Source: Candidatus Woesearchaeota archaeon (GTDB lineage: Archaea; Nanobdellota; Nanobdellia; Woesearchaeales; BS150m-G63). Taken from it: DNA of 64,000 nucleotides. A program made the position numbers and the translations under genes. The notes below the pieces were generated by a model that worked only from the letters and a program-made list of their open reading frames with translations, did not search any database and was not told the origin of the DNA. Below are positions 4,601 to 19,500 of the stretch, one piece after another. Location: assembly GCA_016784165.1 (NCBI GenBank), contig JADHVD010000006.1, positions 74 through 64,073 of the forward strand, in the 5' to 3' direction. Position 1 is the first letter of the stretch, and each line of letters starts with the position of its first letter.

Positions 4601-4891
4601 AACACAATTATATCCAAAGTCAGCATCAACACAAGAAGTAAATTGTTGTTTAAATCCCCCACTAAAACTCTCAAGATAAACATATTCAGCTCCAACTGGT
4701 TCTCCACCAACAACTGCTTCAAATCTGGTGCTATCAATAGATTTTCTGTATCTCTCAACACCGCTTCCACCATAAGTCTTAGCACTCATAACATTAGCAG
4801 CAGCAAAAACATTAGCAGAATAAAATGGTAAAGTTAGAATTAAACAAATCATAAAAATAGCTATTGTTTTCAAATGATTCATATTATTCAT
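1619..4891 (-). CDS. Large secreted protein: Ig-like repeats, coiled coil, hydrophobic Cys-rich C-terminal region
   Basis: 1090 aa, signal peptide, repeated D-x-x-x-P-x-I Ig-domain junctions, many paired Cys, hydrophobic helices after about residue 730. Confidence 0.8.
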   Translation of the reverse strand: MNNMNHLKTIAIFMICLILTLPFYSANVFAAANVMSAKTYGGSGVERYRKSIDSTRFEAVVGGEPVGAEYVYLESFSGGFKQQFTSCVDADFGYNCVKTLEIDTLTGGLYTYYIRSYDNPNGQGTAASTMITDIIVDDIKPIVNTFTSNFNNVGLDQEVRLNFDISDVAAQGCSGFGRVELSVGTENNVIDTLPLNEVVGCSYFSNLTVVPGQHIAEGATKVMYYLKVYDRFDNPSDAKYLQVKVDSEAPSIVESSFEIVTQIGDEPVYYVKKGESTPVVINFLVDGDVDSVNADLLDINSNYISLVSGSCQQIGYERYRCNWNAFINVGETTNAQIKSRAYDDSGNFDEAVFPYTVFVDDSPPELSSLTTGLSHDGVMYVGKKTTYNALITESGVGLNLSKVYLDLSEINGRSNVKADNCTGAGATWNCYWYDIETTNGEGHKQLKLIGEDDSGNAFGKLGIVVYADTTFPEIVSTNYTSSSGYCPTTADMITFEVGVIEASPGLELSVDVSDISTGAENVDGSCSLISDEEGEESGDEWECTAVVGEIISGHFDGDVGFILTDGSNNTIEDVIELEVCLLDNVTVEPNFFDLLEDPPEAVPSIVSRKGLSKYNYPVFVFPRLVASGLTDILNFETSCVGAEVIDVLGERSTNPTLSLRLDQDDNTSDIEEISINCSFSIKLRSGNTVYLNPEIEEFEVPFTLYDTSFGDVTDAMEDKIYGVKERLTELNSSISTLNTVNNIFRVITVITTTLVKVAITAATLLPVIYGVAWILYGVCAIPVVPCEPTSAANAVWMPVGNVLHYIFLGIERFVWPLGIANIGSLWRILFKTIVMLHSCKLCDLNNVASVVSNIGSGTHTVSSDIPWGWSTDRDPRNDLFGNKYVGTIFYDWDPYRSIHTASSCLCIPGYIYNLRKEKAINCRQLRCLEGSVEKGYPSAMCDEKKTQEQCLYVDGAAWTVYGLSEGIWEWIGLFLTQLMGQLLQSLALLAAGIAWSFTCKPLLYPENTAPSVVPIPNIIDNSLIIGCELSGAAIMLVEIDGFGDYWDWDAYNTIVYGYNNPCEGLDYEIDDDGSDDSGSSEAEEALELDI

Positions 4892-4897
4892 TTATTG

Positions 4898-4985
4898 TTT
4901 ACCTATCTTTTACCTAGTCTTTACTTATTTTTTACCTACCCTTTACCTACTCTTCACCTAATCTTTACATACTCTGTACATACTC
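4898..4985. repeat. 11-bp-period tandem array (TTTACCTAnnn), 7 clear copies plus 1 degenerate
   Basis: Core A at 4901, 4912, 4923, 4934, 4945, 4956, 4967 and 4978; minus strand reads nnnTAGGTAAA. Confidence 0.85.
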
Positions 4986-5025
4986 TTTAATTATTTTTTA
5001 ATTAACTATTTTTTTCAAATCTTAT

Positions 5026-5535
5026 TCACTTATGTCTTTTACCTTCAACAAGTTTAATAAATTCTGGAATTAACTTAGTGTATCTTGTATAAATTTCTAC
5101 AGGTTCTGAACTTGCTTTAATGATTATTCTCAATCTACCTATTGCGCTGAGTAAAAATTTAGCCAAATAAACAATTCCCATAACAGCAAATGCAATAGCA
5201 AATAAATACATCAATTCCTTAAGTCCGAACATTTTAATGAACATATTATCTCTTGCTTTTGTAAAAAAGAAAGTAAACGCAAATCCAAAAGCAGAAACAA
5301 TAAGTTTAACCCATTTAAACTTTGCAGTATATTCAACAAATTCCACATCTTTATATTTAAACGCCATAACTGTTCGTGGAAATTTTCTTTTTATCAACAC
5401 TCTTCTGTCTGTAATCAATATATCATAAAGTCCAATCTTAAAATTATACTCTTTAATCACTTTTTCTCCTTGAAGAAGATATTCCTTATATTTAGAATCC
5501 AACTTTTGATTTTTCTCTTTTTTCATCCATTCCAC
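5026..5535 (-). CDS. Bacterial PH-domain-like membrane protein
   Basis: YLLQGEKVI...ILITDRRVLI pattern with two internal TM helices. Confidence 0.55.
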   Translation of the reverse strand: MEWMKKEKNQKLDSKYKEYLLQGEKVIKEYNFKIGLYDILITDRRVLIKRKFPRTVMAFKYKDVEFVEYTAKFKWVKLIVSAFGFAFTFFFTKARDNMFIKMFGLKELMYLFAIAFAVMGIVYLAKFLLSAIGRLRIIIKASSEPVEIYTRYTKLIPEFIKLVEGKRHK

Positions 5536-5597
5536 CCCATTTACTTAAAACCAAATAAAAAAACAAACCAAAATCATCAATCAATTAACCAAATCAC

Positions 5598-7844
5598 TCA
5601 ATGAACCCTAGCGCCATCTTTCATATCTTTAACAAAAACTGGCCCTTTATTTGTTTTTAACTCATTACCACAATAAATAATTTTCCCTTTCTTAACAACC
5701 ATCTTCACTTTAGCAAAATCATCAATAGTGATCTGTGAAAAACTATCTTTATCACCACATTCATCACAACTCTCACCAACAAAAACCCTTTCACCAACTT
5801 CACTATCGCCAACCTCAAGCAATCTACAAACCTTATCTGTTTCAGCAGCTAACAGCATCCCATTACTTTCAACCCCACGAAGTTTAGCTGGTTTGAGATT
5901 AGTAACAACAATTATTTTCCTACCAACAAGCTCATCAACACTATAGTCATTTTTAATTCCTGCACAAATCTGCCTTTTCCCACCACCAATTTTACCGCCA
6001 GTATCTATCTGTATAACATACAATTTATCAGCATCTGGATGATCTTCAACTTTTAATATTTTAGAAACACGCAATTCAAGTTTAGAAAACTCATCTAAAC
6101 TATCAATTTTTTTATCGCCACTAAATTGCTCACGAAGCTCATTTAATCTATCATCATTAATTCTTTCAAATAATGCTTCTGCTTTACCAACTTTATGTCC
6201 TTCCTTAACACTTAACTCACCCAATTCATCAAAACTCTTTACCCTAACCTTAAGTTGTTTCTCAATACCTTCAGCAGTTTCAGGAAGATATGGTTTTAAC
6301 AATAACGCCAAATCCTTTACAAAATTAACCAACACAAATAAAGAAGTGTCTGCCTTCTCTTTATCAAGTTTAAAATTCTTCCATGGCGCACTCTCCTGAA
6401 AATACTGGTTCCCAAGTTTAGATGTATTCATTATCTCTCGTAAAGCATCTTTAATTTTCACTGCACCCAATAATCCAAGCACTTCACTTTCCTTTTTCGC
6501 AACATCAGCAAAGAATTTCTTCTCCCTTTTACCTAATTTCCCAGCAGGAACTTTTCCGCCATAAAAACTATTCAAAAACTTAAGCACCCTATTAACAAGA
6601 TTACCAACATTAGCAACTAATTCGTGATTTATTTTACTCTGAAAATCTGCCCAAGAAAATTCAGTATCAGATTTCTCAGGACGATTCACCATTATATAAT
6701 ATCTCCATACATCTGCTTTAATCCCTGTATTTTTAGCATCATCACCAAAAACACCACTATGTCTACTCTTACTAAATTGCCCCCCTTCATAATTCAAATA
6801 TTCATTAGAAGAAATGTGATCCAACAAAGTATAATCATCTTTTGCCCCAATCAAAAAAGACGGAAACAAAATAGTATGGAAAGGAATATTATCTTTTCCC
6901 ATAAACTGCACCAACTTAACATCTTTAGGAGCATGCCACCATTTTCTCCAATCCTTCTTATTTTTTTTAGTTATAGAAATATATCCAATAGGTGCATCAA
7001 ACCAGGAATAAAACACCTTGCCTTCAAAACCCTCTAATGGAACAGGAACTCCCCATTTTAAATCACGAGTTATACATCTCGGCTTTAGCCCTTCTTTTAA
7101 CCAAGCTTCAGTCATTGTCTTTGCATTAACAGTCCATTTTCCCTTAACAGACTGCTTTTTAATCCAAGAACCTAACTTAGACTCAATCTTTGGCAAATCC
7201 ATAAACAAATGTTTTGACTCTCTTTCTTCAGGTGAAGTTCCACAAACTTCACATTTAGCATCAATAAGGTCCAATGCATCAAGTAATTTACCACAATGTT
7301 CGCACTGATCCCCTTTAGCATTTTCATAACCGCAATGAGGACATTCTCCAGTCACAAATCTGTCAGACAAAAATTTATCACACTTTGGACAATAGGTCTG
7401 CTTAACAATATCCTCAAAAACAAAACCATTCTTATTCAATTTATTAAAAATATCAATAGTAACCTCAAAATTCTCTTTATCAGAAGTTCTTCCAAATGCA
7501 TCAGGACTGCATAAAAACCAATCATAAATTTCCTTCTGCAGTTTAAAATATTTATCAACCAACTGTCTCGGAGTCACCCCTTCAGCAAGCGCTTTAACTT
7601 CAGCAGTTGTGCCGTGCTCATCAGTACCCAACACATAAATAGCCTCTTGCCCATCTAACTTCAAAAACCTAGTATAAACATCAGCACTAATCACGCATAC
7701 CAAAGTACCTAAATGAGGCACATTATTCACATAAGGTAATGCACTAGTTACAAGAGTTCTTTTATTATTTTTCTTATTTATCTGTTTATTAACTTCCTTA
7801 CTTTTACCCTTTCCAATAGATCTCTTAGTTTTCTTAACAGCCAT
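5598..7844 (-). CDS. metG: Methionyl-tRNA synthetase with C-terminal tRNA-binding OB domain
   Basis: TSALPYVNNVPHLG (HIGH-like), two Zn knuckles, QFSKSR (KMSKS-like), C-terminal HPDADKLY...LRGVESNGMLLAA. Confidence 0.97.
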   Translation of the reverse strand: MAVKKTKRSIGKGKSKEVNKQINKKNNKRTLVTSALPYVNNVPHLGTLVCVISADVYTRFLKLDGQEAIYVLGTDEHGTTAEVKALAEGVTPRQLVDKYFKLQKEIYDWFLCSPDAFGRTSDKENFEVTIDIFNKLNKNGFVFEDIVKQTYCPKCDKFLSDRFVTGECPHCGYENAKGDQCEHCGKLLDALDLIDAKCEVCGTSPEERESKHLFMDLPKIESKLGSWIKKQSVKGKWTVNAKTMTEAWLKEGLKPRCITRDLKWGVPVPLEGFEGKVFYSWFDAPIGYISITKKNKKDWRKWWHAPKDVKLVQFMGKDNIPFHTILFPSFLIGAKDDYTLLDHISSNEYLNYEGGQFSKSRHSGVFGDDAKNTGIKADVWRYYIMVNRPEKSDTEFSWADFQSKINHELVANVGNLVNRVLKFLNSFYGGKVPAGKLGKREKKFFADVAKKESEVLGLLGAVKIKDALREIMNTSKLGNQYFQESAPWKNFKLDKEKADTSLFVLVNFVKDLALLLKPYLPETAEGIEKQLKVRVKSFDELGELSVKEGHKVGKAEALFERINDDRLNELREQFSGDKKIDSLDEFSKLELRVSKILKVEDHPDADKLYVIQIDTGGKIGGGKRQICAGIKNDYSVDELVGRKIIVVTNLKPAKLRGVESNGMLLAAETDKVCRLLEVGDSEVGERVFVGESCDECGDKDSFSQITIDDFAKVKMVVKKGKIIYCGNELKTNKGPVFVKDMKDGARVH

Positions 7845-7900
7845 AATCTAATTTAAATTGGATTATAGTTTATAAATATTACTCAAAAAAAGCAAAATAA

Positions 7901-7927
7901 CCTTAACCACTCTTTCCAACTAATCTA
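7901..7927. repeat. 27-bp direct repeat, left copy (att-like or target duplication)
   Basis: CCTTAACCACTCTTTCCAACTAATCTA is identical to 14421-14447 (30 of 31 if extended). Confidence 0.9.
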
Positions 7928-8013
7928 GATTACAAAAATTTGGTTGGAATCCACATTTAAGCATCAAAGAATCAATAATTAAAACTATTAATTATCTTAA
8001 AAATAATGAATAG
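7924..8013 (+). pseudogene. Startless 3' fragment resembling the C-terminus of an NAD-dependent epimerase/dehydratase
   Basis: SRLQKFGWNPHLSIKESIIKTINYLKNNE*, preceded by in-frame TAA; resembles the LGW-P--S--E-I--T--YL tail of extended SDR enzymes (by eye). Confidence 0.45.
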
Positions 8014-8336
8014 GTTATCGATGAAAACTATTTTAGAAAAAAGAATTAATTTTTATGTTTCCGTTTTTTACTAAGTGGGTTTTACACCCAGTAGATTTTC
8101 CTGCAATTATATCTTTTTATTTAATAATCTCTTCTATTGGAGTAATAATTTGTTTAAATTCTTCTACTTTAACTGGTTCAATCTGATTAACACTACTCTT
8201 CTTCCTAGATGTTTTTACCCCATTTAAAACACCTTCCCTAAGCTCATTTTTTAATTCCCTGTCTCTTGATAACATTGACCTTATTTTCTTAAATATCCCA
8301 TCTCTAGTTGTTACTTCATCTTTACTAAGAATTAGA

Positions 8337-11300
8337 TTAATTAATTGAGCTTATATTTAACTGCTTTATTTTTTTAATCAAAATATCAACAGTCTCTTCT
8401 TCTAAAGTAATGGTTGTTTCAAAGAAGTTGTTACTCTCATCAAATTCAAAAATAGAGTTTTCAGGGTCTACCTCAAAAAAGACTTTGTAATCTCCAAAGG
8501 TAGAATATTCATGTGTTAGAGAAAAATTGTAGGATTCCCAAGGCATAATAGTTTCAGATATTGAACCACCTTCACCCTCACCATCTCCATAATTAATATG
8601 GTAGGTAAAATCATCCACCCAGATAGTACCACCAAGAGCACTTACCTCAATATTGAAAGTGACCAAATTAGGATTTTCAAAACTCTGCTCAAAAGATAAT
8701 AATGCTGGAGTCAAATCAGGAGTTCCATTAATGAAGTAAGACTCTAAACCTATATTATTAGTCTCATTAAACTCATCAATTAAATTGTTAGGGTCTAATT
8801 CAAAGTAGAAAGTGTAATCACCAGCAAAATCATACACGTATGAAACTAAAATAGTAGTCTCTTCTCCAGGTTCAAGCCCCCTTCCACTAAATGAATCTCT
8901 AATTAAATTTCTGCCCCCATAATTAAAATTATAAGCATAATAATAATCGCTCTCTTCTAATCCAATATTCTTAAAAGTGACCTCAACAGTTGTTTCATTT
9001 CCTGCATCTGAAAGAAAAGAACTAATGTTTGTAACGATTAAATCTGGCATAGAAACATTAAAATAAATATTTTCACAATTAGTATTTCCAGAAGTATCAT
9101 TCACACAAGCATAAAAGTAATTATATCCTAAATTAAAATCTTCATAAACTGGATCCTCATAATAAACTGTATTTCCACTATGATTATACCAAATTGTATC
9201 AACTTCTACATTATCAGATGCAGAAAGATTAACAAGGATTTGAGCAGTTTCATAAGTTAATCCATCTAATGGGCTATGAATCAAGATTTCAGGATCATTA
9301 TAGTCTTCCACCATAAAGTTAGCAACATCACAAACTATTTGTCCAAGTGAATCATTAACACATGCAGTCAAAGAATAATTTCCAATTTCAAATTCTAAAA
9401 ATATTGGTTCTTCATAAATAACTGCTGATTCATCATTGATGTCATACCAAACAGTATCGGTTCCTAAATTATCCCAGGCAGAGATATTTAATAATATCTC
9501 TATTGAGCTTTGATCTGAAACATTGTAATAATGAGTGTACCATTCAGAGCCGTAAGGGCTTTGTATTGTTATATTGGGGGGATTATTGTTTATATCAAAT
9601 CTTGTTAATCCACATTCTTCATTACCTGCAGTATCATTTGCACATACTTGCATATGATAGCCATAATCAGAACCAAATCCAGGATACCAATTCCAACCGT
9701 AATCTAAACCATCAACATCAACATAAATTGATCCAGTGTATGTAATATTCATGTTATTATAATTATAAAAAATAGTATCAATTCCAAAGTCACTATCAGC
9801 TGAAAAATTAAGCAGTATCTGTGAAACCTCATTAAACTCAGTTCCGTTAGCTGGGCTATGGATTGTTACAACTGGCTCAGTCGCATTAACAGTAAAGAAA
9901 ACAGAAGCACTATCAGAGAGGCCAGAATTATCACTCATATTAACATATAAAGAATAATTCCCGTTAGGTAGGGTAACATCAACTGGTCCTATATAGGTTT
10001 CATTTTCAAAAACAAATTCATAAGGCCAATATTGTTGTTGAATCCCATACCAAACCCTATCAACACCAAAATTATCCCAAGCAGAAAGATTAATCAAAAC
10101 TTCTGGAGTATCAAATACTTCACCGTGTTCAGGACTGATTATAGTAACATTTGGCCTTGTTACATCAGCATAAAATTCAACATATTTATAACCTATAAAA
10201 CCAAAAGTATTATTTGCCCAAACATTTAATTTATATGTTTTTACATCACCATAAATAGGCCAGCCATACCATTCCCAACTCCAAGGAATATCTGAAACAT
10301 TAACATAAACAGGACCTTCATAATACTCAATACCATTAGTAGTATTATACCAAATTTTATCAATATCTCCAGAAACAGATATATTAATTAAAAACATATC
10401 TGGACCAACTTCTGTTGCATTATCTGGACTGATAATTGTAATACTAAAAGCTCCAATAGGATGATAATCAACATCATTACCATCTCCAGGTATATTATAA
10501 ACATAAGGGTGGCCAGAATTATCTTCAAAATCACTCCAGTAATTACCCACATCACTTAAGTTCCAATTATTATTATGTGAATAATAATATTGGTAAGCAT
10601 TTGCTGAATTATTCTCCCCATTATCAATAAACTGATTATTCCAGATAGTATTATAATCATTGTAATAATTTAAATAAATTCCATAATCACCATTATTCTC
10701 CACAATATTGCCAAATATACTGTTGTTATCATTGTGCCAATCTAAATAAATTCCATAATCACCATTATTCTCCACAATATTGCCAAATATACTGTTGTTA
10801 TAATTGTAATCATATAAATAAATTCCAGTATTATTATTATCATTTAAGGTGTTGTTATATATGTTATTGAAAGAACTGGAATAACCTAAATTAATTCCCT
10901 CATAATTATTTGTAAAAATATTATTATTTAAAGTGTTATATGAAGATATATCTAATGAAGTCCCATTCTCAAAACCAGAAATATTACAATTCTGAATAGT
11001 TGTTCCATTGAATTGATTAATATAAATTCCCATTCCATACGAATCATAATCACCTTCAATCGAATGACTATCACAATCAAGAGTTATATCATTTGCACCT
11101 ATAATTAAACCATTACCAGAACAATTCAAAAGATCTTCTGTTAGTGTTGTATCTTCTGTTATTGTATCTCCACAATCTAGAACAGCATCAATATTAAATG
11201 TGATATAAGCACTATTAGTATTACCAGAAGTATCATTCACACTAACATATAAAGAATATCCATATAGTCCTCCATCTGGTAAAGTAACATTAACAGGTAC

Positions 11301-14165
11301 TGCATAAGTTTCATTAACTATAATCCATTCGTAAGGTTCATAATAATCACTACCCCCCATATATTGTTGGATAGAATACTTAACCCTATCAACACCAAAA
11401 TTATCCCAAGCAGAAAGATTAATCAAAACTTCTGGAATATCAAATACTTCACCGTGTTCAGGACTGATTATAGTAACATTTGGCCTTGTTACATCAGCAT
11501 AAAATTCAACATATTCATAATCTATAAAACCAAAAGTATTATTTGCCCAAACATTTAATTTATATGTTTTTACATCATCATAAATAGGCCAGCCATACCA
11601 TTCCCAGCTCCAAGGAATATCTGAAACATTAACATAAACAGGACTTTCATAATACTCAATACCATTAGTAGTATTATACCAAATTGTATCAACATCTCCA
11701 GAAACAGATATATTAATTAAAAACACATCTGGACCAACTTCTATTGCATTATCTGGACTGATAATTGTAATACTAAAAACCCCCTCGACAGGATGATAAT
11801 CTACACCACCCCCATCTCCAGGAATGTAATATGTTTGATTTTGATAACCAGAATTATCTTCAAAATCACTCCAGTAATTACCCACATCACTTAAGTTCCA
11901 ATTATTATTGTATGAATCATATTCTTCACGAGCATTATCTTCTTCATTATCAATAAACTGATTATTCCATATGGTATTTTCAGAACTATTAGCATGCACA
12001 TAAATTCCATGTTCTGCATTATCATCTAATAGATTATTTGAAATAAAATTATTAGAAGAAAAAGTAAAAATGATCCCAGATTCATTATTATTTGTTATTA
12101 AATTATTGAAGACAGAATTATAATCAGAATAAGATTCTAACGCAACCCCATCATCAAAATTATTCTCTACACTATTTCCAGAGATTATATTAAATTTAGA
12201 ATCAAATAACTGGATCCCATGATTTTCATTATAACTCACAATGTTATTAAAAATAGAATTATAATTAGAATCCTCTTCTAAACCAATTCCATCATCACCA
12301 TTACCATTTACAAGGTTATAAGAAATCTCGCTATTTGTGACCTTAGAGAATTCAATTGCCTTATCATCAGCATAATTTAAATTATTCCCAGAAATGAATA
12401 CATTATTAGAAAAACTAATCTCAAGGATATTTCCGTCCATATATTGAAGGTTATTATCTAATAATTGGATATTCTCACTATCATCAACTTCTATAGCTGT
12501 TCTTGCGTTAGAAATATTACAATTTTTAATTGTTATGTTTTCACTATCATAAACTCCTATTGCTTCATCTCCTACAACAGAATAACCATCACAATCAAGA
12601 ATTATATCATTTAAATCTTCAATAAGTAAACCATGTCCATCAAACTCCCATTCACAATCACTTTGTTCATTACACTCATTTGAATTAGTATACCCACATT
12701 CATTTTCTGTATAATAATCTCCATAACAATCTTCCCATTCATAGTCCCAGTTACATCCATTTGCGCTGAAACACTCTTCATCAGAAGAATCAAAATCCCA
12801 ACAATCTTTTTGCTCACACTCCCCATCACAATTCAAAAGATCTTCTATTAGTGTTGTACTCTCATATATTGTATCTCCACAAGATAAACCTTCATCAATA
12901 GAAGTTTCAGATATTTCCAAATCCCATGTAATTGCTTCAATCGGAAAATCCAATTCAAGCCTACCATAATCATAATCTAAATTGTTTTCTGGGTCTTCTA
13001 TTATCACCCCATAATCAGTCATAACATCCTCGTCGTCTCTACCTATCTCTTCTCCAGAAAGTATAAGATCGCCCCATTCTACTCCATTATCCTCAATCCA
13101 GTCTATATTCCAAACAAGGTCACCAGCATATTCACCATTAGGTGCTGTTGCATCGCCAATATTTTGGAAAGTTACATTAGTGATAGAAGTTCCATTATCA
13201 CCAAAATACACTTGTTTATAATCATCATCAACTTTTATTCTTAATCCTAAAGGATCATAAGATGAATTAAGACTATTTCCATTAATATCTTCTAAACCAA
13301 CTGCATGCATATCCTTTGCAATTAATATCATCTCATATTCATCTGTTTCCCAAATAAAATTATCTTCTCCAGATTCAAAAACGATAGCAATATCACCATC
13401 AAATATTTCTTCACCCTCTTCGTTCCGAAAATTAACGTAATCATCAATTTCTACAGTTACTGATTCATGTTCATAATTATTTATTCTCTTAAATTGAATT
13501 TGTAAATAATCATTTGGAAAATTGATAACATCGCCCAAAGATAATGCTGGTAATTCCCAATCTTCATCTAGATCTCCTTCTAGTTCATCTCTATCTTGAT
13601 TATATTTTACTCCAATATGAGTTAATGTGTTATTGTAATAATCTGATTCAATATCCCAAACCCATTCAGCTTCATCATCGTCATAACCATAGCCAAACTG
13701 CTCTAATGCATTCTCATCATGTACAGTATAGATTTCGCCTTCATATCTAATTGTAAGTGAATCATCCCCCATAGCTTCAATAATTGATAGATCATTTCCC
13801 ATAAACTCAATTTCTAATTCTTCAGATTCATTCAAAGGGATAACAACATCAGCAATCCACCTATAATGCAATCCTGCATCTTCATCAACTGTAACATAAA
13901 CATCAGTCTCATACTCATCATTAGATTCTCCAGTCAATCCAATTAAGGCCTCTTGCCCAATAAACACTTGTTCCTCAAAATCATAATCCACACCAGAATA
14001 AAAAAGAGTATCATCTTTTAATATTGGAATATCATGATTATCATAAATCAAATTAGAATAAAAAGGAGTTGTACCTATAACCAATTCATCTTCTTCAACA
14101 CCATAAACACCAAAAGCTAAACTAGAGAAGAGTATCAATATGACTAAACTAAATAATTTTTTCAT
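8337..14165 (-). CDS. Giant surface protein: S-layer-like N-terminus, right-handed beta-helix (NosD/pectin-lyase-like) blocks, Ig-like repeats, two CARDB-like domains
   Basis: 1942 aa, signal peptide, N-rich GIxL/NxIxxN coils, NNWNLSDVGNYWSDF, PDLIVTNI...ELDPNNLIDEFNETNN. Confidence 0.9.
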   Translation of the reverse strand: MKKLFSLVILILFSSLAFGVYGVEEDELVIGTTPFYSNLIYDNHDIPILKDDTLFYSGVDYDFEEQVFIGQEALIGLTGESNDEYETDVYVTVDEDAGLHYRWIADVVIPLNESEELEIEFMGNDLSIIEAMGDDSLTIRYEGEIYTVHDENALEQFGYGYDDDEAEWVWDIESDYYNNTLTHIGVKYNQDRDELEGDLDEDWELPALSLGDVINFPNDYLQIQFKRINNYEHESVTVEIDDYVNFRNEEGEEIFDGDIAIVFESGEDNFIWETDEYEMILIAKDMHAVGLEDINGNSLNSSYDPLGLRIKVDDDYKQVYFGDNGTSITNVTFQNIGDATAPNGEYAGDLVWNIDWIEDNGVEWGDLILSGEEIGRDDEDVMTDYGVIIEDPENNLDYDYGRLELDFPIEAITWDLEISETSIDEGLSCGDTIYESTTLIEDLLNCDGECEQKDCWDFDSSDEECFSANGCNWDYEWEDCYGDYYTENECGYTNSNECNEQSDCEWEFDGHGLLIEDLNDIILDCDGYSVVGDEAIGVYDSENITIKNCNISNARTAIEVDDSENIQLLDNNLQYMDGNILEISFSNNVFISGNNLNYADDKAIEFSKVTNSEISYNLVNGNGDDGIGLEEDSNYNSIFNNIVSYNENHGIQLFDSKFNIISGNSVENNFDDGVALESYSDYNSVFNNLITNNNESGIIFTFSSNNFISNNLLDDNAEHGIYVHANSSENTIWNNQFIDNEEDNAREEYDSYNNNWNLSDVGNYWSDFEDNSGYQNQTYYIPGDGGGVDYHPVEGVFSITIISPDNAIEVGPDVFLINISVSGDVDTIWYNTTNGIEYYESPVYVNVSDIPWSWEWYGWPIYDDVKTYKLNVWANNTFGFIDYEYVEFYADVTRPNVTIISPEHGEVFDIPEVLINLSAWDNFGVDRVKYSIQQYMGGSDYYEPYEWIIVNETYAVPVNVTLPDGGLYGYSLYVSVNDTSGNTNSAYITFNIDAVLDCGDTITEDTTLTEDLLNCSGNGLIIGANDITLDCDSHSIEGDYDSYGMGIYINQFNGTTIQNCNISGFENGTSLDISSYNTLNNNIFTNNYEGINLGYSSSFNNIYNNTLNDNNNTGIYLYDYNYNNSIFGNIVENNGDYGIYLDWHNDNNSIFGNIVENNGDYGIYLNYYNDYNTIWNNQFIDNGENNSANAYQYYYSHNNNWNLSDVGNYWSDFEDNSGHPYVYNIPGDGNDVDYHPIGAFSITIISPDNATEVGPDMFLINISVSGDIDKIWYNTTNGIEYYEGPVYVNVSDIPWSWEWYGWPIYGDVKTYKLNVWANNTFGFIGYKYVEFYADVTRPNVTIISPEHGEVFDTPEVLINLSAWDNFGVDRVWYGIQQQYWPYEFVFENETYIGPVDVTLPNGNYSLYVNMSDNSGLSDSASVFFTVNATEPVVTIHSPANGTEFNEVSQILLNFSADSDFGIDTIFYNYNNMNITYTGSIYVDVDGLDYGWNWYPGFGSDYGYHMQVCANDTAGNEECGLTRFDINNNPPNITIQSPYGSEWYTHYYNVSDQSSIEILLNISAWDNLGTDTVWYDINDESAVIYEEPIFLEFEIGNYSLTACVNDSLGQIVCDVANFMVEDYNDPEILIHSPLDGLTYETAQILVNLSASDNVEVDTIWYNHSGNTVYYEDPVYEDFNLGYNYFYACVNDTSGNTNCENIYFNVSMPDLIVTNISSFLSDAGNETTVEVTFKNIGLEESDYYYAYNFNYGGRNLIRDSFSGRGLEPGEETTILVSYVYDFAGDYTFYFELDPNNLIDEFNETNNIGLESYFINGTPDLTPALLSFEQSFENPNLVTFNIEVSALGGTIWVDDFTYHINYGDGEGEGGSISETIMPWESYNFSLTHEYSTFGDYKVFFEVDPENSIFEFDESNNFFETTITLEEETVDILIKKIKQLNISSIN
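10053..11910. repeat. Intragenic near-identical duplication of about 520 bp (about 10053-10575 and 11382-11910)
   Basis: Offset 1329 bp (443 codons) at AACCCTATCAACACC and GGACTGATAATTG, becoming 1335 after a 6-nt indel. Confidence 0.9.
10671..10800. repeat. 72-bp-period tandem duplication of one beta-helix coil
   Basis: 58 identical bp at 10671-10728 and 10743-10800 (NNSIFGNIVENNGDYGIYL twice). Confidence 0.9.
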
Positions 14166-14340
14166 TATATGCTATTATACCTCTGTAATATAACTATAAC
14201 CACCCCAATGAAATACAATATACCTTATTTATAAATCTTACTATTCTTTATTACTTCTTAGTAATCAATAGATTAGACAAGGAAGATATTAATTCCCCTC
14301 TATAAAGATATATGTTTCCAAACTATAAATAATTTATGTT

Positions 14341-14439
14341 TCACTTACACATATCATTCAATTTCTCAATAATCCAAACCATTCCAAGAATATCTAACCC
14401 ACAATATTTCAATAATGCTTCCTTAACCACTCTTTCCAA
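14341..14439 (-). pseudogene. Startless 3' fragment resembling the C-terminus of DUF2779-family proteins
   Basis: KEALLKYCGLDILGMVWIIEKLNDMCK*; resembles the LLxYCxLDxxxMV tail (by eye). Confidence 0.45.
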
Positions 14440-14447
14440 CTAATCTA
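14421..14447. repeat. 27-bp direct repeat, right copy, overlapping the DUF4430 stop codon
   Basis: Identical to 7901-7927; encodes RLVGKSG*. Confidence 0.9.
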
Positions 14448-14872
14448 AATTCAATATTGTCACCTGGCTGGATGATATATTCACCAACACCCACTCTACC
14501 AATTTCACCATCAACATAATAAGCCCAATAAAAATCATCTCCACCACATATGTTATCAATACAATTGACAAGCACCATGTACTGCAATTCTTCCATTTGT
14601 ATAACATGTAACTCAAGTAAGATATCAAGTGGAGTTCTACCTGACTCAATCAATTCAATGGTAGTGCCACCTACACTCCTAATAATCAAAAAAGTATCAT
14701 CCTCAACAGATGCATTATCTACAACCCCATTTAGCACATAACCAATAAAAGTAAGTACAGCGATAAATACCACCAAAAACAAAAGAATTCTCATTTCTTT
14801 CAATCTAGAGGCATCAAACCTTTTTTTCAAAAATTTTTTACTTTTTTTCAGAATTTTTTTCATTGTTTTCAC
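14423..14872 (-). CDS. Membrane-anchored DUF4430 (transcobalamin C-terminal-like) protein
   Basis: TM helix followed by TPLDIL...VNCIDN...FYWAYYVDGE...VGVGEYIIQPGDNIEFR; start may be the ATG at 14863. Confidence 0.8.
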   Translation of the reverse strand: MKTMKKILKKSKKFLKKRFDASRLKEMRILLFLVVFIAVLTFIGYVLNGVVDNASVEDDTFLIIRSVGGTTIELIESGRTPLDILLELHVIQMEELQYMVLVNCIDNICGGDDFYWAYYVDGEIGRVGVGEYIIQPGDNIEFRLVGKSG

Positions 14873-15270
14873 TTCTTTTTTTTAGGTTCTTTCATTTTCT
14901 TTGTGATTGCTAATTTCTCACCACAACCACCACAAACAAAAACAATAGATTTGACCCCTTGAAATGTTTTTCTAATATAAGGAACATCTGCTTCACCTTC
15001 ATGTTCACATTTAGGACAAACATATTTAATCTCCATATTTAAAGATTCTTCATGTTCTTTTTTATCCTCAACAAAACCACATTCAGGACAAACATATTCT
15101 TTAGCTCTTATTTTCACTTTGCCCTTCTCAACAGGTTTTCCCATTTTAACTTTTCCGCATTTAGGACATTGTTTCTTATACACCCAAGCTTTAGCTTTTC
15201 CTAGCTCCCCTAAAGTTCTATTACTAAAATATAAACATTGATCCATGCTTTCTGGTTCCACTAATCCCAT
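14869..15270 (-). CDS. Multi-Zn-ribbon hypothetical protein
   Basis: CPKC, CPECG, CPKC and CGGCG motifs. Confidence 0.8.
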   Translation of the reverse strand: MGLVEPESMDQCLYFSNRTLGELGKAKAWVYKKQCPKCGKVKMGKPVEKGKVKIRAKEYVCPECGFVEDKKEHEESLNMEIKYVCPKCEHEGEADVPYIRKTFQGVKSIVFVCGGCGEKLAITKKMKEPKKKK

Positions 15271-15533
15271 TAATCATCGCCCCCATTATCTTCATTTACA
15301 TTATTATCTTCTGTATTATTATCTGTATCATTAACATCAGGTAACCAATTTTTCTGAGTAGCATAACCAACAACATCTTTAGTATTGCCACCAACACCTT
15401 TTACCCAATTAAAAAATTCTTTAGCAAACGTAATCTTTTCCTCTTTTGTTTCTAGATCTGTATCTAAAGAATTCTTAATCATATAGCCTCCGACTACTAA
15501 AAATACAACAATAAAAAATAATATTTTTTTCAT
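15270..15533 (-). CDS. Small membrane-anchored hypothetical protein
   Basis: N-terminal TM helix, D/N-rich tail, coupled to neighbours. Confidence 0.65.
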   Translation of the reverse strand: MKKILFFIVVFLVVGGYMIKNSLDTDLETKEEKITFAKEFFNWVKGVGGNTKDVVGYATQKNWLPDVNDTDNNTEDNNVNEDNGGDD

Positions 15534-15542
15534 TTTTTCTTT

Positions 15543-16355
15543 TTAATTCTTCTCCAACCTTTTAATCTCAATACTAATTGCCTCATCTTTAACACGTATA
15601 TACCGAGGACATAAAGTGTATTGATAATCATGTTTATTGCAATATTTAAGTATTTTTTGTTTTTCTTCTTCACAACAATACTTCACAACAACATTAATTC
15701 CCTTGTCACCCCTATGAATAACATTAAAACCTTTCAAATCTTTCTTAACTTTTTTATTTTTATCATAAAGCCATTTCAATCTCTTTTTAGCCCCTTTAAG
15801 TTTTTCTAATAATATTTCAGAATTATTTTCATCAAAATCATAACCCTCAAAACCCTTAATCAATGAAAACAACCTCTCATCGTTAGTACCAATAAAACCA
15901 CCATAACCTGCATCAACAACTTTCCATCTTCCAAAACTACCTATAAATATATCAGCAACTCGCTTAAACCTACCACCTATAGAACAAATATCTAAAATAA
16001 CAAAATTTTTACCTTTGCAAACCTTATATATCTTCTTAACTTGTTGCTCTGCAAAATAGCCAGCTAAATTTTGATACAATAAACACCCAGATTTCTCTTT
16101 CAAATTTTTAGAATCAATCAACCCATATTCAGTTTTAACTCGCTCCAATCCAAAACCAACTTTCTTAGGAAACTGTAAATAAGTTAACCACCCTCCTTGA
16201 TCAGGAATTAAAACATTTTCAAAACCCTTCTGTTTCGCAACACTTAAAGCAATAAAAATAGCACTATTCCCTCTATCAACAAGACGCACATATTTACAAC
16301 CAATCAATTTCTTGATTTTTTTTTCAATCTCCTCAACAACTTCCACATCAACCAT
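15543..16355 (-). CDS. Short DegT/DnrJ/EryC1/StrS-like PLP-dependent protein
   Basis: RGNSAIFIAL, VLIPD, ILD, GSFGRWK...GYGG (PLP Lys retained). Confidence 0.7.
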   Translation of the reverse strand: MVDVEVVEEIEKKIKKLIGCKYVRLVDRGNSAIFIALSVAKQKGFENVLIPDQGGWLTYLQFPKKVGFGLERVKTEYGLIDSKNLKEKSGCLLYQNLAGYFAEQQVKKIYKVCKGKNFVILDICSIGGRFKRVADIFIGSFGRWKVVDAGYGGFIGTNDERLFSLIKGFEGYDFDENNSEILLEKLKGAKKRLKWLYDKNKKVKKDLKGFNVIHRGDKGINVVVKYCCEEEKQKILKYCNKHDYQYTLCPRYIRVKDEAISIEIKRLEKN

Positions 16356-16570
16356 AACAAAAAAACATCAAAGCAAGTATAAATATCTTTGCAAAAACAA
16401 AATTATCAAAATTAAAATACCTAACAAAAAAATATATAACCCAAAACATAAATTAGAATCACATAAATATTTATATATAAGTTCTACACTCATTTATTTG
16501 GGTGGTAAGTAGAATCGGCTAACCAACTAGAGGTATAAGTAACGAATAGATTACAAAAAGAGGAATAAAA

Positions 16571-19500
16571 ATGACAAAAATTTCTAAAATAAAAAAAAGA
16601 GATGGGAGCATAGCCCCATTTGATCCAGAGAAAATAGCAAACGCAATATTCAAAGCAGCAGAATCAGTTGGCGGAACAAATAAAACGCTTTCTAAAAGAT
16701 TAACAGAAGAAATCACCTTAATACTAGAAGAAAAATTTAGTAACGAAATTCCTGAGGTAGAAACTATTCAAGATATTGTTGAAAACACATTAATCAATAA
16801 AGGACATGTAAAAACCGCAAAGTCTTACATCATTTATAGGCATGAACATAAATCTATAAGGGATGAAAAAAAAGCAGTTCTTGGAAAAATAAGCCCTTCT
16901 AAAAAATTAAATGTAAATGCTCTTACAGTATTAAAAGAAAGATATTTGTTAAAAAATATGAAAGGAGAATTAATAGAATCTCCTGAAGATTTATTTGAAA
17001 GAATAGCAAAGGACATATCTAAATCAGATAAAAAATACAATAAAAAAGCAGATTTAAAGAAAATTGCACAAGAATTTTATGATATGATGGCAAACCTTGA
17101 TTTTTTGCCAAACTCACCTACATTAATGAATGCCGGAACAGACATTCAACAATTAGCAGCGTGTTTTGTACTTCCTATTGAAGACAGCATGGAAGGAATT
17201 TTTGGTACATTAAGAGATGCTGCTATAATCCATAAAAGTGGTGGAGGAACAGGATTCTCTTTCTCTAGATTAAGAGCTAAAAGTTCAATTGTAAAATCCA
17301 CTAAAGGTGTAGCCTCTGGACCAGTTTCATTCCTAACAGTATACAACGCAGCAACTGAAGTTATCAAACAAGGAGGAAAGAGAAGAGGCGCAAACATGGG
17401 TATATTAAAAATTGACCACCCAGACATTTTAGAATTCATAAATTGCAAAGAAAAAAATGAATCAATAACTAACTTCAATATTTCAGTAGGATTAACAGAA
17501 GATTTCATGAAAGCAGTTGAAAACGATGAAGAATATGATCTAATAAACCCTGCAGACGGTTTATGTGTACAAAAATTAAATGCTCAAACAGTATTCAATT
17601 TGTTAGTTAGTTCTGCTTGGCGTAATGGAGATCCAGGAATTGTGTTTTTAGATAGAATAAATAAAGATAATCCAACACCAGTAGTAGGAGAAATTGAATC
17701 AACTAACCCTTGTCTTGCACCAGATACTTTAATTTCAACAAATAATGGACTTGAAAAAATTAAAGAACTTTACAAAAAATATAAAGATAAAGAAATTATA
17801 ATTCTTACAGACGATAGAACAATAACTAAAAAAATAAAACATAACCAAAGAGAATATTACCAAAATGGAGTTGCATTAAGAAAAGCAAAAATATTCAAAA
17901 CAGGAATAAAAAATATTCTCGAAATAGAATTAAAAAATGGACAAACATTAAAAGTCACACCAGACCATAAAATTCTAAGTACAAAAGGATGGAAAGAAGC
18001 AAAAAAACTAAAACAAGGAGAAGAAGTCCTTATTCAATCAGGAAAAGGATTTTATCCAGATTCAGATAAAATTGGAGAAGAATTAGGGTTATTTATGGGG
18101 TGGCTATCAGGAGACGGATGGCTTACTTCTGATAAAAAAAGTATTGGAATGGTATTTGCATCTAATGAAGAATATATCATGAAAAAGATGCAAAAAATTG
18201 CAGAAAAAAACAAAGCAGGAAAAGGAATATTCAATAAAAGAGAAAACAAAACTCTTCAATTACTTTTTAAAAGAAAGAAATTTGTAGAATTAATAAGCTC
18301 ACTTGATATACAACCTAAAAGGGCGCATAAAAAAAGAGTACCAAAAACAATATTTACTTCATCAGAAAAAACAGTTACTGCGTATCTCAATGGATTATTC
18401 TGTTCAGATGGAACTATTAATTTTATAGATCAAGCACATAGAGATATAAGATTAAGCTCTACGTCTAAAGAATTATTAAAAGATACCCAACTTCTACTTC
18501 TAAATTTAGGAATATTCTCTAATATTTATGAAAGAACAAAAAAGAATCAAGCAAATTTTAGTTATACAACAATAAAAGGAGAAAAAAGAATATATAATAG
18601 TAAACCCTACTTTGAATTAATCATAAATGGAAATAATATATGTAAATTTAAAAGTGCCATAGGAGATTTGATTCATAAAGAAAAAAATAAAAAAATAAAC
18701 AAAATTAATAGGTGTTCGAGAAAGAATACAAAATTCATAAGCAAAATAAAAAGTATAAACAAAGATAAAAAAACAGAAGTATATGACATTTCAGAAAAAA
18801 TAACAAATTCTTTAATTGCAAATGGAATCGTTGTTCACAATTGTGGAGAGCAACCACTTCTCCCGTATGAAGCATGTAATCTTGGTTCAATTAATCTTGG
18901 AAACTTTATCCAAAACCAAAAAATTGACTGGAAAAGATTAAAGAAAATAATTCATAAATCAATTCATTTTTTAGATAATGTAATAGATAGAAGCAAATAC
19001 CCCCTTCCTGAAATCACAAAAATGGTCAACGCAAATAGAAAAGTGGGATTGGGAGTTATGGGTTGGGCAGATATGTTAATGCAATTAGGAATAGCTTACA
19101 ATAGTGAAGAAGGAATAAAATTAGCAGAAGAAGTAATGAAATTCGTAAAAGACGAGTCTGATAAAGCATCAACCATTCTAGCAAAAGAAAGAGGAGTATT
19201 TCCAAATTGGAACGATAGTATATACAACAAAGAGAGCAGATACTTTCAAGGAACCCATATAAAATTAAGAAACGCAACAAGAACCACAATTGCACCAACA
19301 GGAACTATTGGTATGATTGCTGATGCATCTGGTGGAGTAGAACCCTTATTTGCTTTAAGTTATGTAAAAAGAGTCATGGATGGAAAAGAACTATTTTACA
19401 TTGATAAAAACTTCAAAAAAGCATTGCAAGAACACAAAATATTTTCAAAAAGTTTAATGGAAAAAGTAATCAATCAAGGCTCAATCCAACATATCGATGA

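What the first reader, a model, noticed from the sequence alone, without database searches (positions are those of the whole stretch)
7901..14447. 27-bp direct repeat brackets a 6.5-kb integrase-free insert at the 3' end of a DUF4430 gene
Seen: CCTTAACCACTCTTTCCAACTAATCTA occurs at 7901 and 14421 (offset 6520 bp). The right copy is the last codons and stop of the DUF4430 gene; the left copy is an orphan duplicate upstream of metG. Removing one copy plus the interval would join the DUF4430 gene directly to the metG upstream region. Established: duplication of a gene's 3' end is the footprint of att-type integration. Unusual: the target is a protein gene, the cargo is one giant surface gene, and no recombinase or terminal inverted repeat is present. 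Inference: an excisable or swappable surface-protein cassette mobilised in trans.
Basis: partly seen in the sequence, partly recalled or inferred. Interest (0 to 1): 0.75.

Follow-up and report, generated by a model that had tools for sequence, protein, structure and literature searches.

The report
Recombinase-free surface-gene insertion with 27-bp duplication
A 6.5-kb piece of foreign DNA carrying one giant surface-protein gene was recently inserted behind a small gene of a tiny Woesearchaeota (DPANN) archaeon. The insertion copied 27 bases of the target, and wild populations still hold genomes with and without it. This insertion footprint is known from bacteria, and its mechanism is still unsolved.

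Summary
The 27-mer occurs exactly twice in the 865-kb genome, at 7901 and 14421, and its edges are sharp.

- **Empty site found.** It exists in both congeners. It also exists in near-identical wild strains, where metagenome contigs join the DUF4430 end, one 27-mer and the metG promoter.
- **Both alleles coexist.** Eight further contigs from different runs stop exactly at the last base of the 27-mer. This shows that filled and empty alleles occur together in the same samples.
- **It is an insertion.** The two copies are identical to each other but differ from the G001 orthologous sequence at about 5 of 27 positions. The duplication therefore arose in this lineage.
- **The att reading is not supported.**
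  - The 27-mer has no dyad symmetry.
  - The insert has no inverted ends.
  - The genome has only two Xer-like tyrosine recombinases, no serine recombinase and no Cas1.
  - The left end of the insert cuts through an epimerase-like gene tail.
- **Same footprint elsewhere.** The genome holds three more lineage-specific inserts of 1.4 to 6.9 kb. Each is bracketed by a different, unique repeat of 39 to 50 bp (two perfect, one with a single mismatch).

This is "insertion with long target duplication" (Nobusato 2000; Furuta 2010). The allele then appears to be exchanged between strains by homologous recombination. It is a new archaeal member of a known kind whose mechanism is unsolved.

The parts
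5598..7844 (-). metG (methionyl-tRNA synthetase, 748 aa). It is the conserved left neighbour of the site.
   Evidence: Pfam tRNA-synt_1g 7.9e-150, Anticodon_3 and tRNA_bind. It is syntenic in G001 and G002.
7845..7900 (-). Native metG upstream region. It holds a TATA-like box (TTTATAAATATT, about 7869-7881) and the T-rich stretch that follows the DUF4430 stop in the empty allele.
   Evidence: Conserved up to window 7883 in G001 and present in G002. It directly follows the single 27-mer in empty-site contigs L030 and L036.
7901..7927 (.). Left (orphan) copy of the 27-bp target duplication.
   Evidence: It lies in an 8-codon dead frame.
7924..8013 (+). 29-codon tail plus stop (SRLQKFGWNPHLSIKESIIKTINYLKNNE*). 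It resembles the extreme C-terminus of SDR sugar epimerases/dehydratases and is probably a cut remnant of a donor gene.
   Evidence: The best two PDB matches align to the C-terminal end of their chains: 8du1 dTDP-glucose 4,6-dehydratase 323-346/367 and 4zrm UDP-glucose 4-epimerase 286-308/312. E is about 0.8 each, so this is weak. There is no paralog in the genome.
8117..8275 (-). Small ORF (52 aa from the ATG; 77 codons stop-to-stop up to 8350) downstream of the giant gene. Function unknown.
   Evidence: It is called as a 52-aa gene in contig L059. There is no Pfam match.
8337..14165 (-). Cargo: a 1942-aa secreted giant surface protein. It has a signal-peptide-like N-terminus, two NosD/beta-helix modules, Big_7 and CARDB domains, and an internal duplication of about 1.33 kb.
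   Evidence: Pfam. Internal repeats at 10035-10334 and 11364-11663 are 96% identical. There is no close homolog in congeners or among 5.8 billion proteins apart from its own cluster.
14166..14420 (-). Right end of the insert: the AT-rich upstream region of the giant gene with several TATA-like boxes. A 32-codon minus-strand frame starting in the repeat was proposed by another first-stage note to be a DUF2779 tail.
   Evidence: Sequence. The DUF2779 claim is not supported by Pfam, NCBIfam, PDB or the family HMM. Only a weak pattern resemblance to the resident DUF2779 protein was seen.
14421..14447 (.). Right copy of the 27-bp duplication. It is the functional 3' end (last 7 codons plus stop) of the DUF4430 gene.
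14423..14872 (-). DUF4430 gene (149 aa, or 146 aa from an alternative start). It is the conserved right neighbour and the target of the insertion.
   Evidence: Pfam DUF4430 4.2e-10. Orthologs are 88% identical in G001 and 57% in G002.
14458..14512 (.). Two segregating SNPs, 11 and 65 nt from the junction. They are the only differences between filled and empty haplotypes over 10.4 kb, and all four combinations occur.

Best explanation
A linear or circular piece of another Woesearchaeote's chromosome was captured once, recently. It landed in the roughly 20-nt spacer between the DUF4430 stop codon and the metG promoter. The fragment carried the giant surface-protein gene with its own upstream region, a small ORF and the cut tail of an epimerase-like gene.

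- **How it was inserted (inferred).** The event copied 27 bp of the target (the last 7 codons, the stop and 2 nt). Both neighbours therefore stay intact. This is the footprint called "insertion with long target duplication". The enzyme is inferred, not shown. The likeliest route is host break repair or replication: either a staggered break filled in on both sides, or a template switch that re-enters 27 nt behind the exit point. A sequence-specific integrase is unlikely.
- **A general process in this lineage (shown).** It also produced three other inserts with unrelated 39-50-bp duplications.
- **What happened afterwards (inferred).** The filled and empty alleles segregate in the natural population. 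They are moved between strain backgrounds by homologous recombination, with crossovers in the conserved flanks within about 100 bp (X side) to 340 bp (Y side) of the junction. The 27-bp repeat could also allow occasional precise loss.
- **Net effect.** A strain-variable giant surface protein.
For: - **Empty site in congeners.** G002 has DUF4430, 53 bp, then metG. G001 has a 601-bp ParE/antitoxin filler. The blastn breakpoints fall at window 14423 and 7883.
- **Empty site in near-identical strains.** L030, L033, L035 and L036 hold exactly one 27-mer. L033 is 99.98% identical to the window over 10,443 bp.
- **Coexistence of alleles.** Eight contigs from different runs end at the last base of the 27-mer. 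The insert-only contig L060 equals 28 nt + R + insert + R + 28 nt, which is k=55 fork geometry. In sample ERZ24794645 the 39-bp-repeat locus assembles straight through (L081), while this locus forks (L028).
- **Polarity.** The two copies are identical to each other but differ from the G001 orthologous sequence at about 5 of 27 positions. The same holds for the 39-mer (35/39) and the 45-mer.
- **Recent origin.** The insert is invariant among strains apart from a few differences in its internal repeat. The flanks differ by 1-10%.
- **Not att-like.** There are no TIRs or shared termini. The 27-mer is unique. There are only two Xer-like recombinases in housekeeping contexts, one of them conserved in G001. 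There is no resolvase or Cas1. The left end carries a truncated epimerase-like tail.
- **Three more inserts.** C18 has a 39-bp repeat bracketing 6.9 kb with argG/argH. C20 has a 45-bp repeat bracketing 1.5 kb. C12 has a 40-bp repeat (50 bp with one mismatch) bracketing 1.7 kb with a GGDEF gene. G001 shows a single-copy empty site at the first two and lacks the third insert.
- **Known footprint.** It is described in PMC2853133.
- **Exchange by homologous recombination.** The only two SNPs in 10.4 kb lie 11 and 65 nt from the junction, in all four combinations, with the ancestral G,G on empty alleles.
Against: - No enzyme or intermediate is identified, so the staggered-break or template-switch step is pure inference.
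- At 27 bp the repeat is below the 30-bp threshold that Furuta et al. used to exclude att cores.
- A precise duplication that restores a gene's 3' end is also what integrases produce.
- The assembly is only 86% complete, and a virus- or plasmid-borne integrase would not be seen.
- The donor genome was not found.
- Metagenome contigs can be strain chimeras. L026 is a scaffold with 100-N gaps. The inference of homologous exchange therefore rests on short-range k-mer phasing.
- One of the other repeats (C12) is 9+1+40 bp. This could mean crossover between similar sequences rather than exact duplication.
Confidence: 0.6

Rival explanations
1. This is att-type site-specific integration. The 6.5-kb unit is an integrase-less cassette (CIME/IME-like) whose 27-bp core matches the DUF4430 3' end. 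It is integrated and excised in trans by a tyrosine recombinase: one of the two host Xer-like enzymes or one from a co-resident virus or plasmid.
For: The duplication is precise and restores the gene's last 7 codons and stop. The exact one-copy empty site and the filled site coexist in the same samples. Filled and empty alleles occur on the same SNP backgrounds 11 nt away. Two PF00589 recombinases exist in the genome. The repeat length of 27 bp is within the range of att cores (PMC2853133 uses >30 bp to exclude them).
Against: - No dyad-symmetric arms were seen in or around the 27-mer (sequence).
- The 27-mer occurs nowhere else in the genome, in IMG/VR or in JGI metagenome contigs.
- Both recombinases are about 268-aa Xer-type proteins in housekeeping neighbourhoods, and one is 93% conserved in G001.
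- The left end of the insert truncates a gene.
- Three further inserts with unrelated repeats and no integrases would each need their own enzyme.
Confidence: 0.15
2. This is homology-guided (Campbell-type) integration. A circularised donor fragment happened to carry, or had acquired, a short copy of the DUF4430 end. A single host-recombination crossover in that 27-31-bp arm then inserted it, leaving the arm on both sides.
For: Identity continues as 30/31 after one mismatch. The C12 repeat is 9+1+40 bp, as expected if two similar but not identical sequences crossed over. The GC content of the inserts equals that of the host, so the donors are relatives. Homologous recombination is evidently active around the site.
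Against: Four unrelated donors would each have to carry a perfect 27-45-bp copy of their particular target. There is no similarity beyond the repeat edges. The three bases after the mismatch are within chance. A full circle would also have brought the missing 5' part of the epimerase-like gene, and this is absent.
Confidence: 0.1
3. The segment is ancestral. The empty sites in relatives and strains are all repeat-mediated deletions, so there was no insertion event in this lineage.
For: Repeat-mediated precise deletions are documented in archaea (Haloquadratum, PMC3119063). RecA-independent excision of an island between short repeats is documented in E. coli (PMC5426353). Some empty alleles in the population could have arisen this way.
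Against: - The two copies are identical to each other but differ from the G001 orthologous sequence at about 5 of 27 positions.
- Both congeners lack the gene.
- The giant protein has no close relative anywhere.
- Empty alleles carry the ancestral G,G flank haplotype.
- A perfect 27-mer pair arising by chance is expected about 1e-3 times per genome (my calculation from base composition).
Confidence: 0.04
4. This is an assembly artefact: a separate circular element sharing a 27-mer with the chromosome was threaded into the contig.
For: The fork topology at both ends of the insert resembles a cycle attached at a repeat node.
Against: The X-R-insert and insert-R-Y junctions are spanned in assemblies with k=55 and k=31. 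Both exceed 27, so real reads must cross them. They recur in at least 5 assemblies from different samples.
Confidence: 0.01

Closest known systems
Insertion with long target duplication (Nobusato, Uchiyama, Ohashi & Kobayashi 2000, Gene 259:99; Furuta, Abe & Kobayashi 2010, NAR 38:2428 = PMC2853133)
   Same: A small gene block under 20 kb is flanked by a direct repeat that is single-copy at the empty site of a close relative. The repeat is unique in the genome, often overlaps a gene's 3' end by a few bases, varies in length between events, and comes with no integrase, transposase or inverted ends. The mechanism is unknown.
   Different: The described cases are bacterial and were collected for restriction-modification cargo. 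In that survey no archaeal case passed the filters. Here the host is a DPANN archaeon and the cargo is a giant surface protein. The other inserts carry argG/argH, a GGDEF gene and an unknown gene. The repeats are shorter (27-50 bp, against 46 to more than 400 bp). The insertion is also caught as a polymorphism inside natural populations.
Minimal mobile elements (MMEs) of Neisseria (Saunders & Snyder 2002; Snyder et al. 2007; recalled from memory, not read here)
   Same: One site between two conserved genes holds different cargo or none in different genomes. The alleles are exchanged by homologous recombination in the conserved flanks, and no recombinase is involved.
   Different: As I recall it, MMEs are defined by flank homology and carry no target duplication. 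Here a 27-bp duplication marks the founding insertion.
Integrase-less cis-mobilisable elements or decayed islands flanked by attL/attR (CIMEs, IMEs, tRNA/tmRNA islands)
   Same: Direct repeats that restore the 3' end of the target gene, no recombinase inside, and an exact empty site in relatives.
   Different: Those use a recognisable att core shared with an integrase-bearing element. Here no such element, symmetry or second use of the core exists, and the genome shows the same footprint with unrelated repeats.
H47 genomic island of E. coli: RecA-independent excision between short direct repeats without a site-specific recombinase (PMC3191183, PMC5426353)
   Same: A small island bounded by short direct repeats, with no recombinase of its own and precise loss carried out by host functions.
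   Different: Excision of H47 was shown experimentally. Here loss through the repeat is only a possibility, and the empty alleles look ancestral.
Repeat-mediated deletions in Haloquadratum walsbyi and Halobacterium (Dyall-Smith et al. 2011, PMC3119063)
   Same: These are archaeal strain-specific segments bounded by a direct repeat that is single-copy in the other strain.
   Different: Those repeats are mostly 4-20 bp and pre-existing, and the events are deletions. Here the repeats are 27-50 bp, were made by the event, and the polarity is insertion.

Membership tests
Insertion with long target duplication (Nobusato 2000; Furuta 2010) | The direct repeats flanking the insert align to one copy at an uninterrupted empty site in a related genome. 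| tested here: met
   G002 and co-occurring strains L030, L033, L035 and L036 have one copy joining DUF4430 to the metG upstream region.
Insertion with long target duplication (Nobusato 2000; Furuta 2010) | The repeat is longer than transposon target duplications. The survey threshold was >30 bp. | tested here: inconclusive
   27 bp perfect, or 30/31 if one mismatch is allowed. This is far above IS/transposon duplications but just under the survey's 30-bp cut-off. The three sister inserts have 39, 45 and 40(50) bp.
Insertion with long target duplication (Nobusato 2000; Furuta 2010) | No integrase, transposase or inverted terminal repeats in or beside the insert. The repeat is unique in the genome. 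| tested here: met
   Pfam on all ORFs from 1619 to 19924, no TIRs, and the 27-mer occurs only twice.
Insertion with long target duplication (Nobusato 2000; Furuta 2010) | Repeat sequence and length vary from event to event, so there is no common target sequence. | tested here: met
   There are four events with unrelated repeats of 27, 39, 45 and 40(50) bp.
att-type site-specific integration (tyrosine or serine recombinase, own or in trans) | A recombinase gene in the element, or a cognate integrase-bearing element using the same core. | tested here: not met
   None in the insert. The genome has only two Xer-like PF00589 proteins in housekeeping contexts, no PF00239 match above cut-off and no Cas1. 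The core is absent from IMG/VR and JGI contigs. The assembly is 86% complete, so absence is not absolute.
att-type site-specific integration (tyrosine or serine recombinase, own or in trans) | The core carries inverted recombinase-binding arms around a short overlap region. | tested here: not met
   By inspection the 27-mer has no dyad symmetry. No inverted repeat involving it appears among the listed pairs.
att-type site-specific integration (tyrosine or serine recombinase, own or in trans) | An excised circular form with the joined ends (attP) is detectable. | not testable with these tools
No fetched contig shows this junction.
DNA transposon / IS / casposon | Terminal inverted repeats plus a transposase or Cas1-type integrase, and a short fixed-length target duplication. 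| tested here: not met
   No TIRs, no Cas1, and duplication lengths vary from 27 to 50 bp.
Neisseria-type minimal mobile element site | The same pair of conserved flanking genes holds different cargo or none in different genomes, exchanged by flank homology. | tested here: met
   Empty in G002 and in strains, ParE/antitoxin in G001, and the giant gene here. Mosaic SNPs confined to within 65 nt of the junction fit exchange by homologous recombination, which is inferred and not shown.
Repeat-mediated deletion (ancestral segment lost elsewhere) | Both repeat copies pre-exist in the ancestor, so they should be as diverged from each other as orthologs are. | tested here: not met
   The copies are 27/27 identical to each other but about 22/27 to the G001 orthologous sequence. 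The same pattern holds at the 39-mer (35/39) and the 45-mer.

The most novel reading that the evidence does not exclude
Woesearchaeota, and perhaps other genome-reduced DPANN or CPR organisms, may possess a dedicated and still unrecognised DNA-capture activity. It would open the chromosome with nicks staggered by about 27-50 nt and ligate in 1.5-7-kb pieces of foreign chromosomal DNA. There would be no element-encoded enzyme and no target sequence. This would make it a principal route of gene gain, including strain-variable surface proteins, in organisms that lack ordinary mobile elements.
Probability: 0.15. Interest if true: 0.8.

Novelty: new member of a known kind. Interest (0 to 1): 0.5.

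Why it matters
DPANN archaea have tiny genomes with almost no recognisable mobile elements, yet they differ strongly in surface proteins and show many patchy acquired genes. Here one gain event is caught in the act. The boundaries are exact, the empty allele still segregates, and three sister events sit in the same genome.

The evidence shows that gene gain in this organism proceeds through the unexplained "long target duplication" route. That route has been known from bacteria since 2000 and was not seen in archaea in the one systematic survey read here.

The case also gives a natural system for measuring how fast a giant surface-protein allele spreads or is lost, using a sample series in which both alleles coexist. 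It offers a defined set of junctions with 27-50-bp duplications that any proposed mechanism must explain.

Tried and rejected
- **Exact 27-mer scans.** JGI metagenome contigs and IMG/VR gave 0 hits.
- **Extended homology of the left copy to DUF4430 (decayed paralog idea).** tblastn, blastn and a permutation test were negative.
- **Terminal inverted repeats, or termini shared between the two large inserts.** None found.
- **tRNA or ncRNA at the ends.** None found.
- **Donor search with the giant protein.** There is no relative above about 48% identity over short stretches.
- **Gene remnants at the insert ends.** The left epimerase-like tail has only weak PDB support, and Pfam and NCBIfam are silent on it. 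The right "DUF2779 tail" proposed by another first-stage note is not supported.
- **Direct repeats around G001's toxin-antitoxin filler and other G001-specific segments.** None of 17 bp or more.
- **"The insert is identical in two diverged haplogroups."** I withdrew this as firm evidence. L026 is a scaffold with 100-N gaps that breaks at the first haplogroup SNP.
- **Four-gamete argument for recurrent excision.** Rejected as not diagnostic. Conversion tracts that stop at the heterology give the same pattern.
- **Trivial repeat pairs from the genome screen.** The C9 21-mer is two tRNA genes. The C23 31-mer is a pair of paralogs. The C18 27-mer pair 478 bp apart is also present in G001.
Full report
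**Observation**

The 27-mer CCTTAACCACTCTTTCCAACTAATCTA lies at 7901-7927 and 14421-14447. No other match with up to 3 mismatches exists in the window, and none appeared in 100 shuffles. The whole assembly (865 kb, 26 contigs, 86% complete) holds only these two copies. From the base composition I estimate about 1e-3 chance perfect 27-mer pairs per genome.

- The right copy is the end of the DUF4430 gene 14423-14872(-): the codons RLVGKSG, the stop and 2 further nt.
- The left copy lies 57 nt upstream of the metG start at 7844, in an 8-codon dead frame.
- Identity ends abruptly. Similarity of the adjoining 20-60 nt is no better than shuffled sequence.
- Between the copies lie these features:
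  - a 29-codon plus-strand tail;
  - a 52-77-codon ORF;
  - one 1942-aa secreted protein with NosD/beta-helix, Big_7 and CARDB domains;
  - that protein's 255-bp upstream region.
- The interval has no recombinase, no inverted ends, no tRNA and no Rfam match.

Earlier notes of this scan name the organism as a Woesearchaeota (DPANN) archaeon.

**Relatives**

Only two other species of the genus are held.

- **G001** is about 81% identical in DNA. Alignment to the window stops exactly at the DUF4430 stop (14423) and resumes at 7883, in the metG promoter. In between, G001 has 601 bp encoding a ParE toxin (Pfam 4e-7) and a small partner, with no flanking repeat.
- **G002** is about 72% identical. 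Its DUF4430 gene is followed after 53 bp by metG.

Neither has a close homolog of the giant protein. Nor does a 5.8-billion-protein collection, apart from the protein's own cluster. The DUF4430|metG adjacency is therefore ancestral, and the spacer is a site that has been hit at least twice.

**Population data**

The DUF4430 protein cluster led to contigs from a series of metagenome assemblies of near-identical strains.

- **Filled.** Three carry the filled structure: L026, L031 and the window itself.
- **Empty.** Four carry the exact predicted empty site, which is the DUF4430 end, one 27-mer and then the metG upstream region: L030, L033, L035 and L036. L030 and L036 run on into the metG start.
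- **Fork.** Eight stop at the very last base of the 27-mer: L027, L028, L029, L032, L034, L037, L038 and L039.
- **Insert only.** Contigs L059 and L060 complete the picture. L060 is 28 nt + R + insert + R + 28 nt, and 27+28 = 55 is the final k of metaSPAdes.

Both k=55 and Logan's k=31 exceed 27. These breaks are therefore true forks: in the same sample, the sequence after the 27-mer continues either into the insert or into the metG promoter.

A control is available. In sample ERZ24794645 the locus with the 39-bp repeat (see below) assembles straight through both copies at 33x (L081). In the same sample this locus forks at 37x (L028). Both junctions of the filled allele are physically real in several assemblies, so misassembly is excluded.

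**Polarity and age**

- The two copies are identical to each other, yet the G001 orthologous sequence differs at about 5 of 27 positions. The duplication therefore arose after the species split. This is an insertion, not an ancestral segment deleted elsewhere.
- The insert is invariant among strains, apart from a few differences inside its own 1.33-kb internal repeat. Flanks of the second haplogroup are 90-99% identical.
- The empty-allele contig L033 is 99.98% identical to the window over 10,443 bp. Its only two differences lie 11 and 65 nt from the junction, at 14458 and 14512.
- All four combinations of these two sites occur. The outgroup state (G,G on the coding strand) is found on empty alleles.

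I read this as one recent insertion. The allele was then exchanged between backgrounds by homologous recombination, with crossovers in the short stretch next to the heterology that is identical between haplogroups.

This last step is inferred. L026 is a scaffold with 100-N gaps that breaks at the first haplogroup-specific SNP, so I do not use it as proof that the insert sits in two haplogroups.

**Why it is not an att site**

- The 27-mer has no dyad symmetry and is used nowhere else.
- The genome encodes only two tyrosine recombinases. Both are about 268-aa Xer-type proteins next to housekeeping genes, and one is 93% conserved in G001. There is no resolvase above cut-off and no Cas1.
- The left end of the insert begins with SRLQKFGWNPHLSIKESIIKTINYLKNNE*. 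Its best two PDB matches are the extreme C-termini of a dTDP-glucose dehydratase and a UDP-glucose epimerase. E is about 0.8, so the match is weak, but it is positionally consistent. The insert thus looks like a raw piece of a chromosome cut inside a gene.
- A similar claim for the right end (a DUF2779 tail) could not be supported.

**The same footprint elsewhere in the genome**

I screened the assembly for isolated perfect repeats of 22 bp or more lying 0.3-40 kb apart. I also screened for indels against 394 kb of G001. Together these gave three more cases.

- **C18.** A 39-bp repeat brackets 6.9 kb with argH, argG, an ACT-domain protein, a NUDIX protein, a thymidylate-kinase-like protein and a GFO/IDH-like protein. 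G001 has one copy (35/39) joining the flanks. argG is absent from the genus and family but 71% identical in another family. The structure is confirmed in independent assemblies.
- **C20.** A 45-bp repeat beside a tRNA brackets 1.5 kb with one 370-aa gene. G001 and G002 have contiguous empty sites.
- **C12.** A 40-bp repeat (50 bp with one mismatch) brackets 1.7 kb with a GGDEF gene. G001 lacks the insert.

The four repeats are unrelated in sequence. The inserts share no termini, and their GC content equals that of the host. Among about ten G000-specific segments in the compared part, the four largest carry such repeats. None of the 12 G001-specific segments has a repeat longer than 16 bp.

One sequence-specific integrase cannot explain four unrelated cores. 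A process that duplicates whatever target it hits can.

**Comparison with what is known**

This is the pattern named "insertion with long target duplication". It was found by genome comparison in Helicobacter and later in many bacteria for restriction-modification genes. The repeats there are unique, variable in length and sometimes overlap a gene's 3' end by a few bases. No mobility genes are present and the mechanism is unknown. In that survey no archaeal case passed the filters (PMC2853133).

The site also behaves like a Neisseria minimal mobile element, with different cargo between the same two genes exchanged by flank homology. That comparison is from memory and was not read here.

Precise loss between short repeats without a recombinase is documented (PMC5426353, PMC3119063). 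It could contribute to the empty alleles. The ancestral flank haplotype on empty alleles nevertheless argues that most of them never had the insert.

Earlier notes of this scan describe similar recombinase-free cassettes in CPR and other bacteria. They pointed me to the Nobusato and Furuta papers, which I then read.

**Verdict**

The prediction of an empty site is confirmed, even within populations. The att/in-trans-recombinase mechanism is not supported. This is a new, archaeal, population-resolved member of a known but mechanistically unsolved kind of insertion.

**Tools**

No read-level test for circles was therefore possible.

Noticed in passing
own genome contig C18:25842-32794 (outside the window): A perfect 39-bp direct repeat (AAGAATTAATAAAGATGTGCTGTAGTGTTTGTTACAACA) brackets a 6.9-kb block (argH, argG, ACT, NUDIX, thymidylate-kinase-like, GFO/IDH-like). 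The block is absent from G001, which has one copy joining the flanks. argG is missing from the genus and family. The block is contiguous, and apparently fixed, in two independent metagenome assemblies.
   Followed up: yes
own genome contig C20:7695-9223: A perfect 45-bp AT-rich direct repeat beside a tRNA gene brackets a 1.5-kb insert with one 370-aa gene. G001 and G002 have uninterrupted empty sites.
   Followed up: yes
G001 has the two flanks about 100 bp apart.
   Followed up: partly
L011:8879-9479 (G001): In the congener, the same DUF4430-metG spacer holds a ParE-toxin/small-antitoxin pair with no flanking repeat. The spacer is therefore a recurrent landing site.
   Followed up: partly
window 17699-18841: The LAGLIDADG intein in the ribonucleotide reductase gene (1143 bp) is present here but absent from the G001 ortholog, with clean in-frame boundaries in the blastn alignment.
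   Followed up: no
window 14458 and 14512: The only two polymorphic sites in 10.4 kb of flank among near-clonal strains lie 11 and 65 nt from the insertion junction and occur in all four combinations. The site at 14458 changes Asn/Asp in DUF4430.
   Followed up: partly
window 10035-10860 and 11364-12170: The giant gene contains an internal tandem-like duplication with a 1329-bp period that is 82-96% identical. The few between-strain differences inside the insert all fall here, which suggests conversion between copies or assembly collapse. Assemblers put 100-N gaps here.
   Followed up: no
window about 63717-64025 (-) against giant protein residues 325-425: The N-terminal part of the giant protein is 41% identical to a resident surface-protein gene at the window end. 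This fits a donor from a related Woesearchaeote.
   Followed up: no
own genome contig C2:1300-1500 and 5920-6120; contig C15:1-200 and 5327-5560: Two further bracketed segments were not analysed. One is an imperfect direct repeat of about 130 bp around 4.6 kb of small genes, including toxin-antitoxin-like genes. The other is arrays of a 93-bp unit at both ends of a 5.3-kb stretch.
   Followed up: no
L035:1-480: The upstream part of this low-coverage (1.5x) empty-site contig does not match the window's gene order. It has a 225-aa ORF instead of the zinc-ribbon gene. This is either a chimeric contig or another rearranged strain.
   Followed up: no
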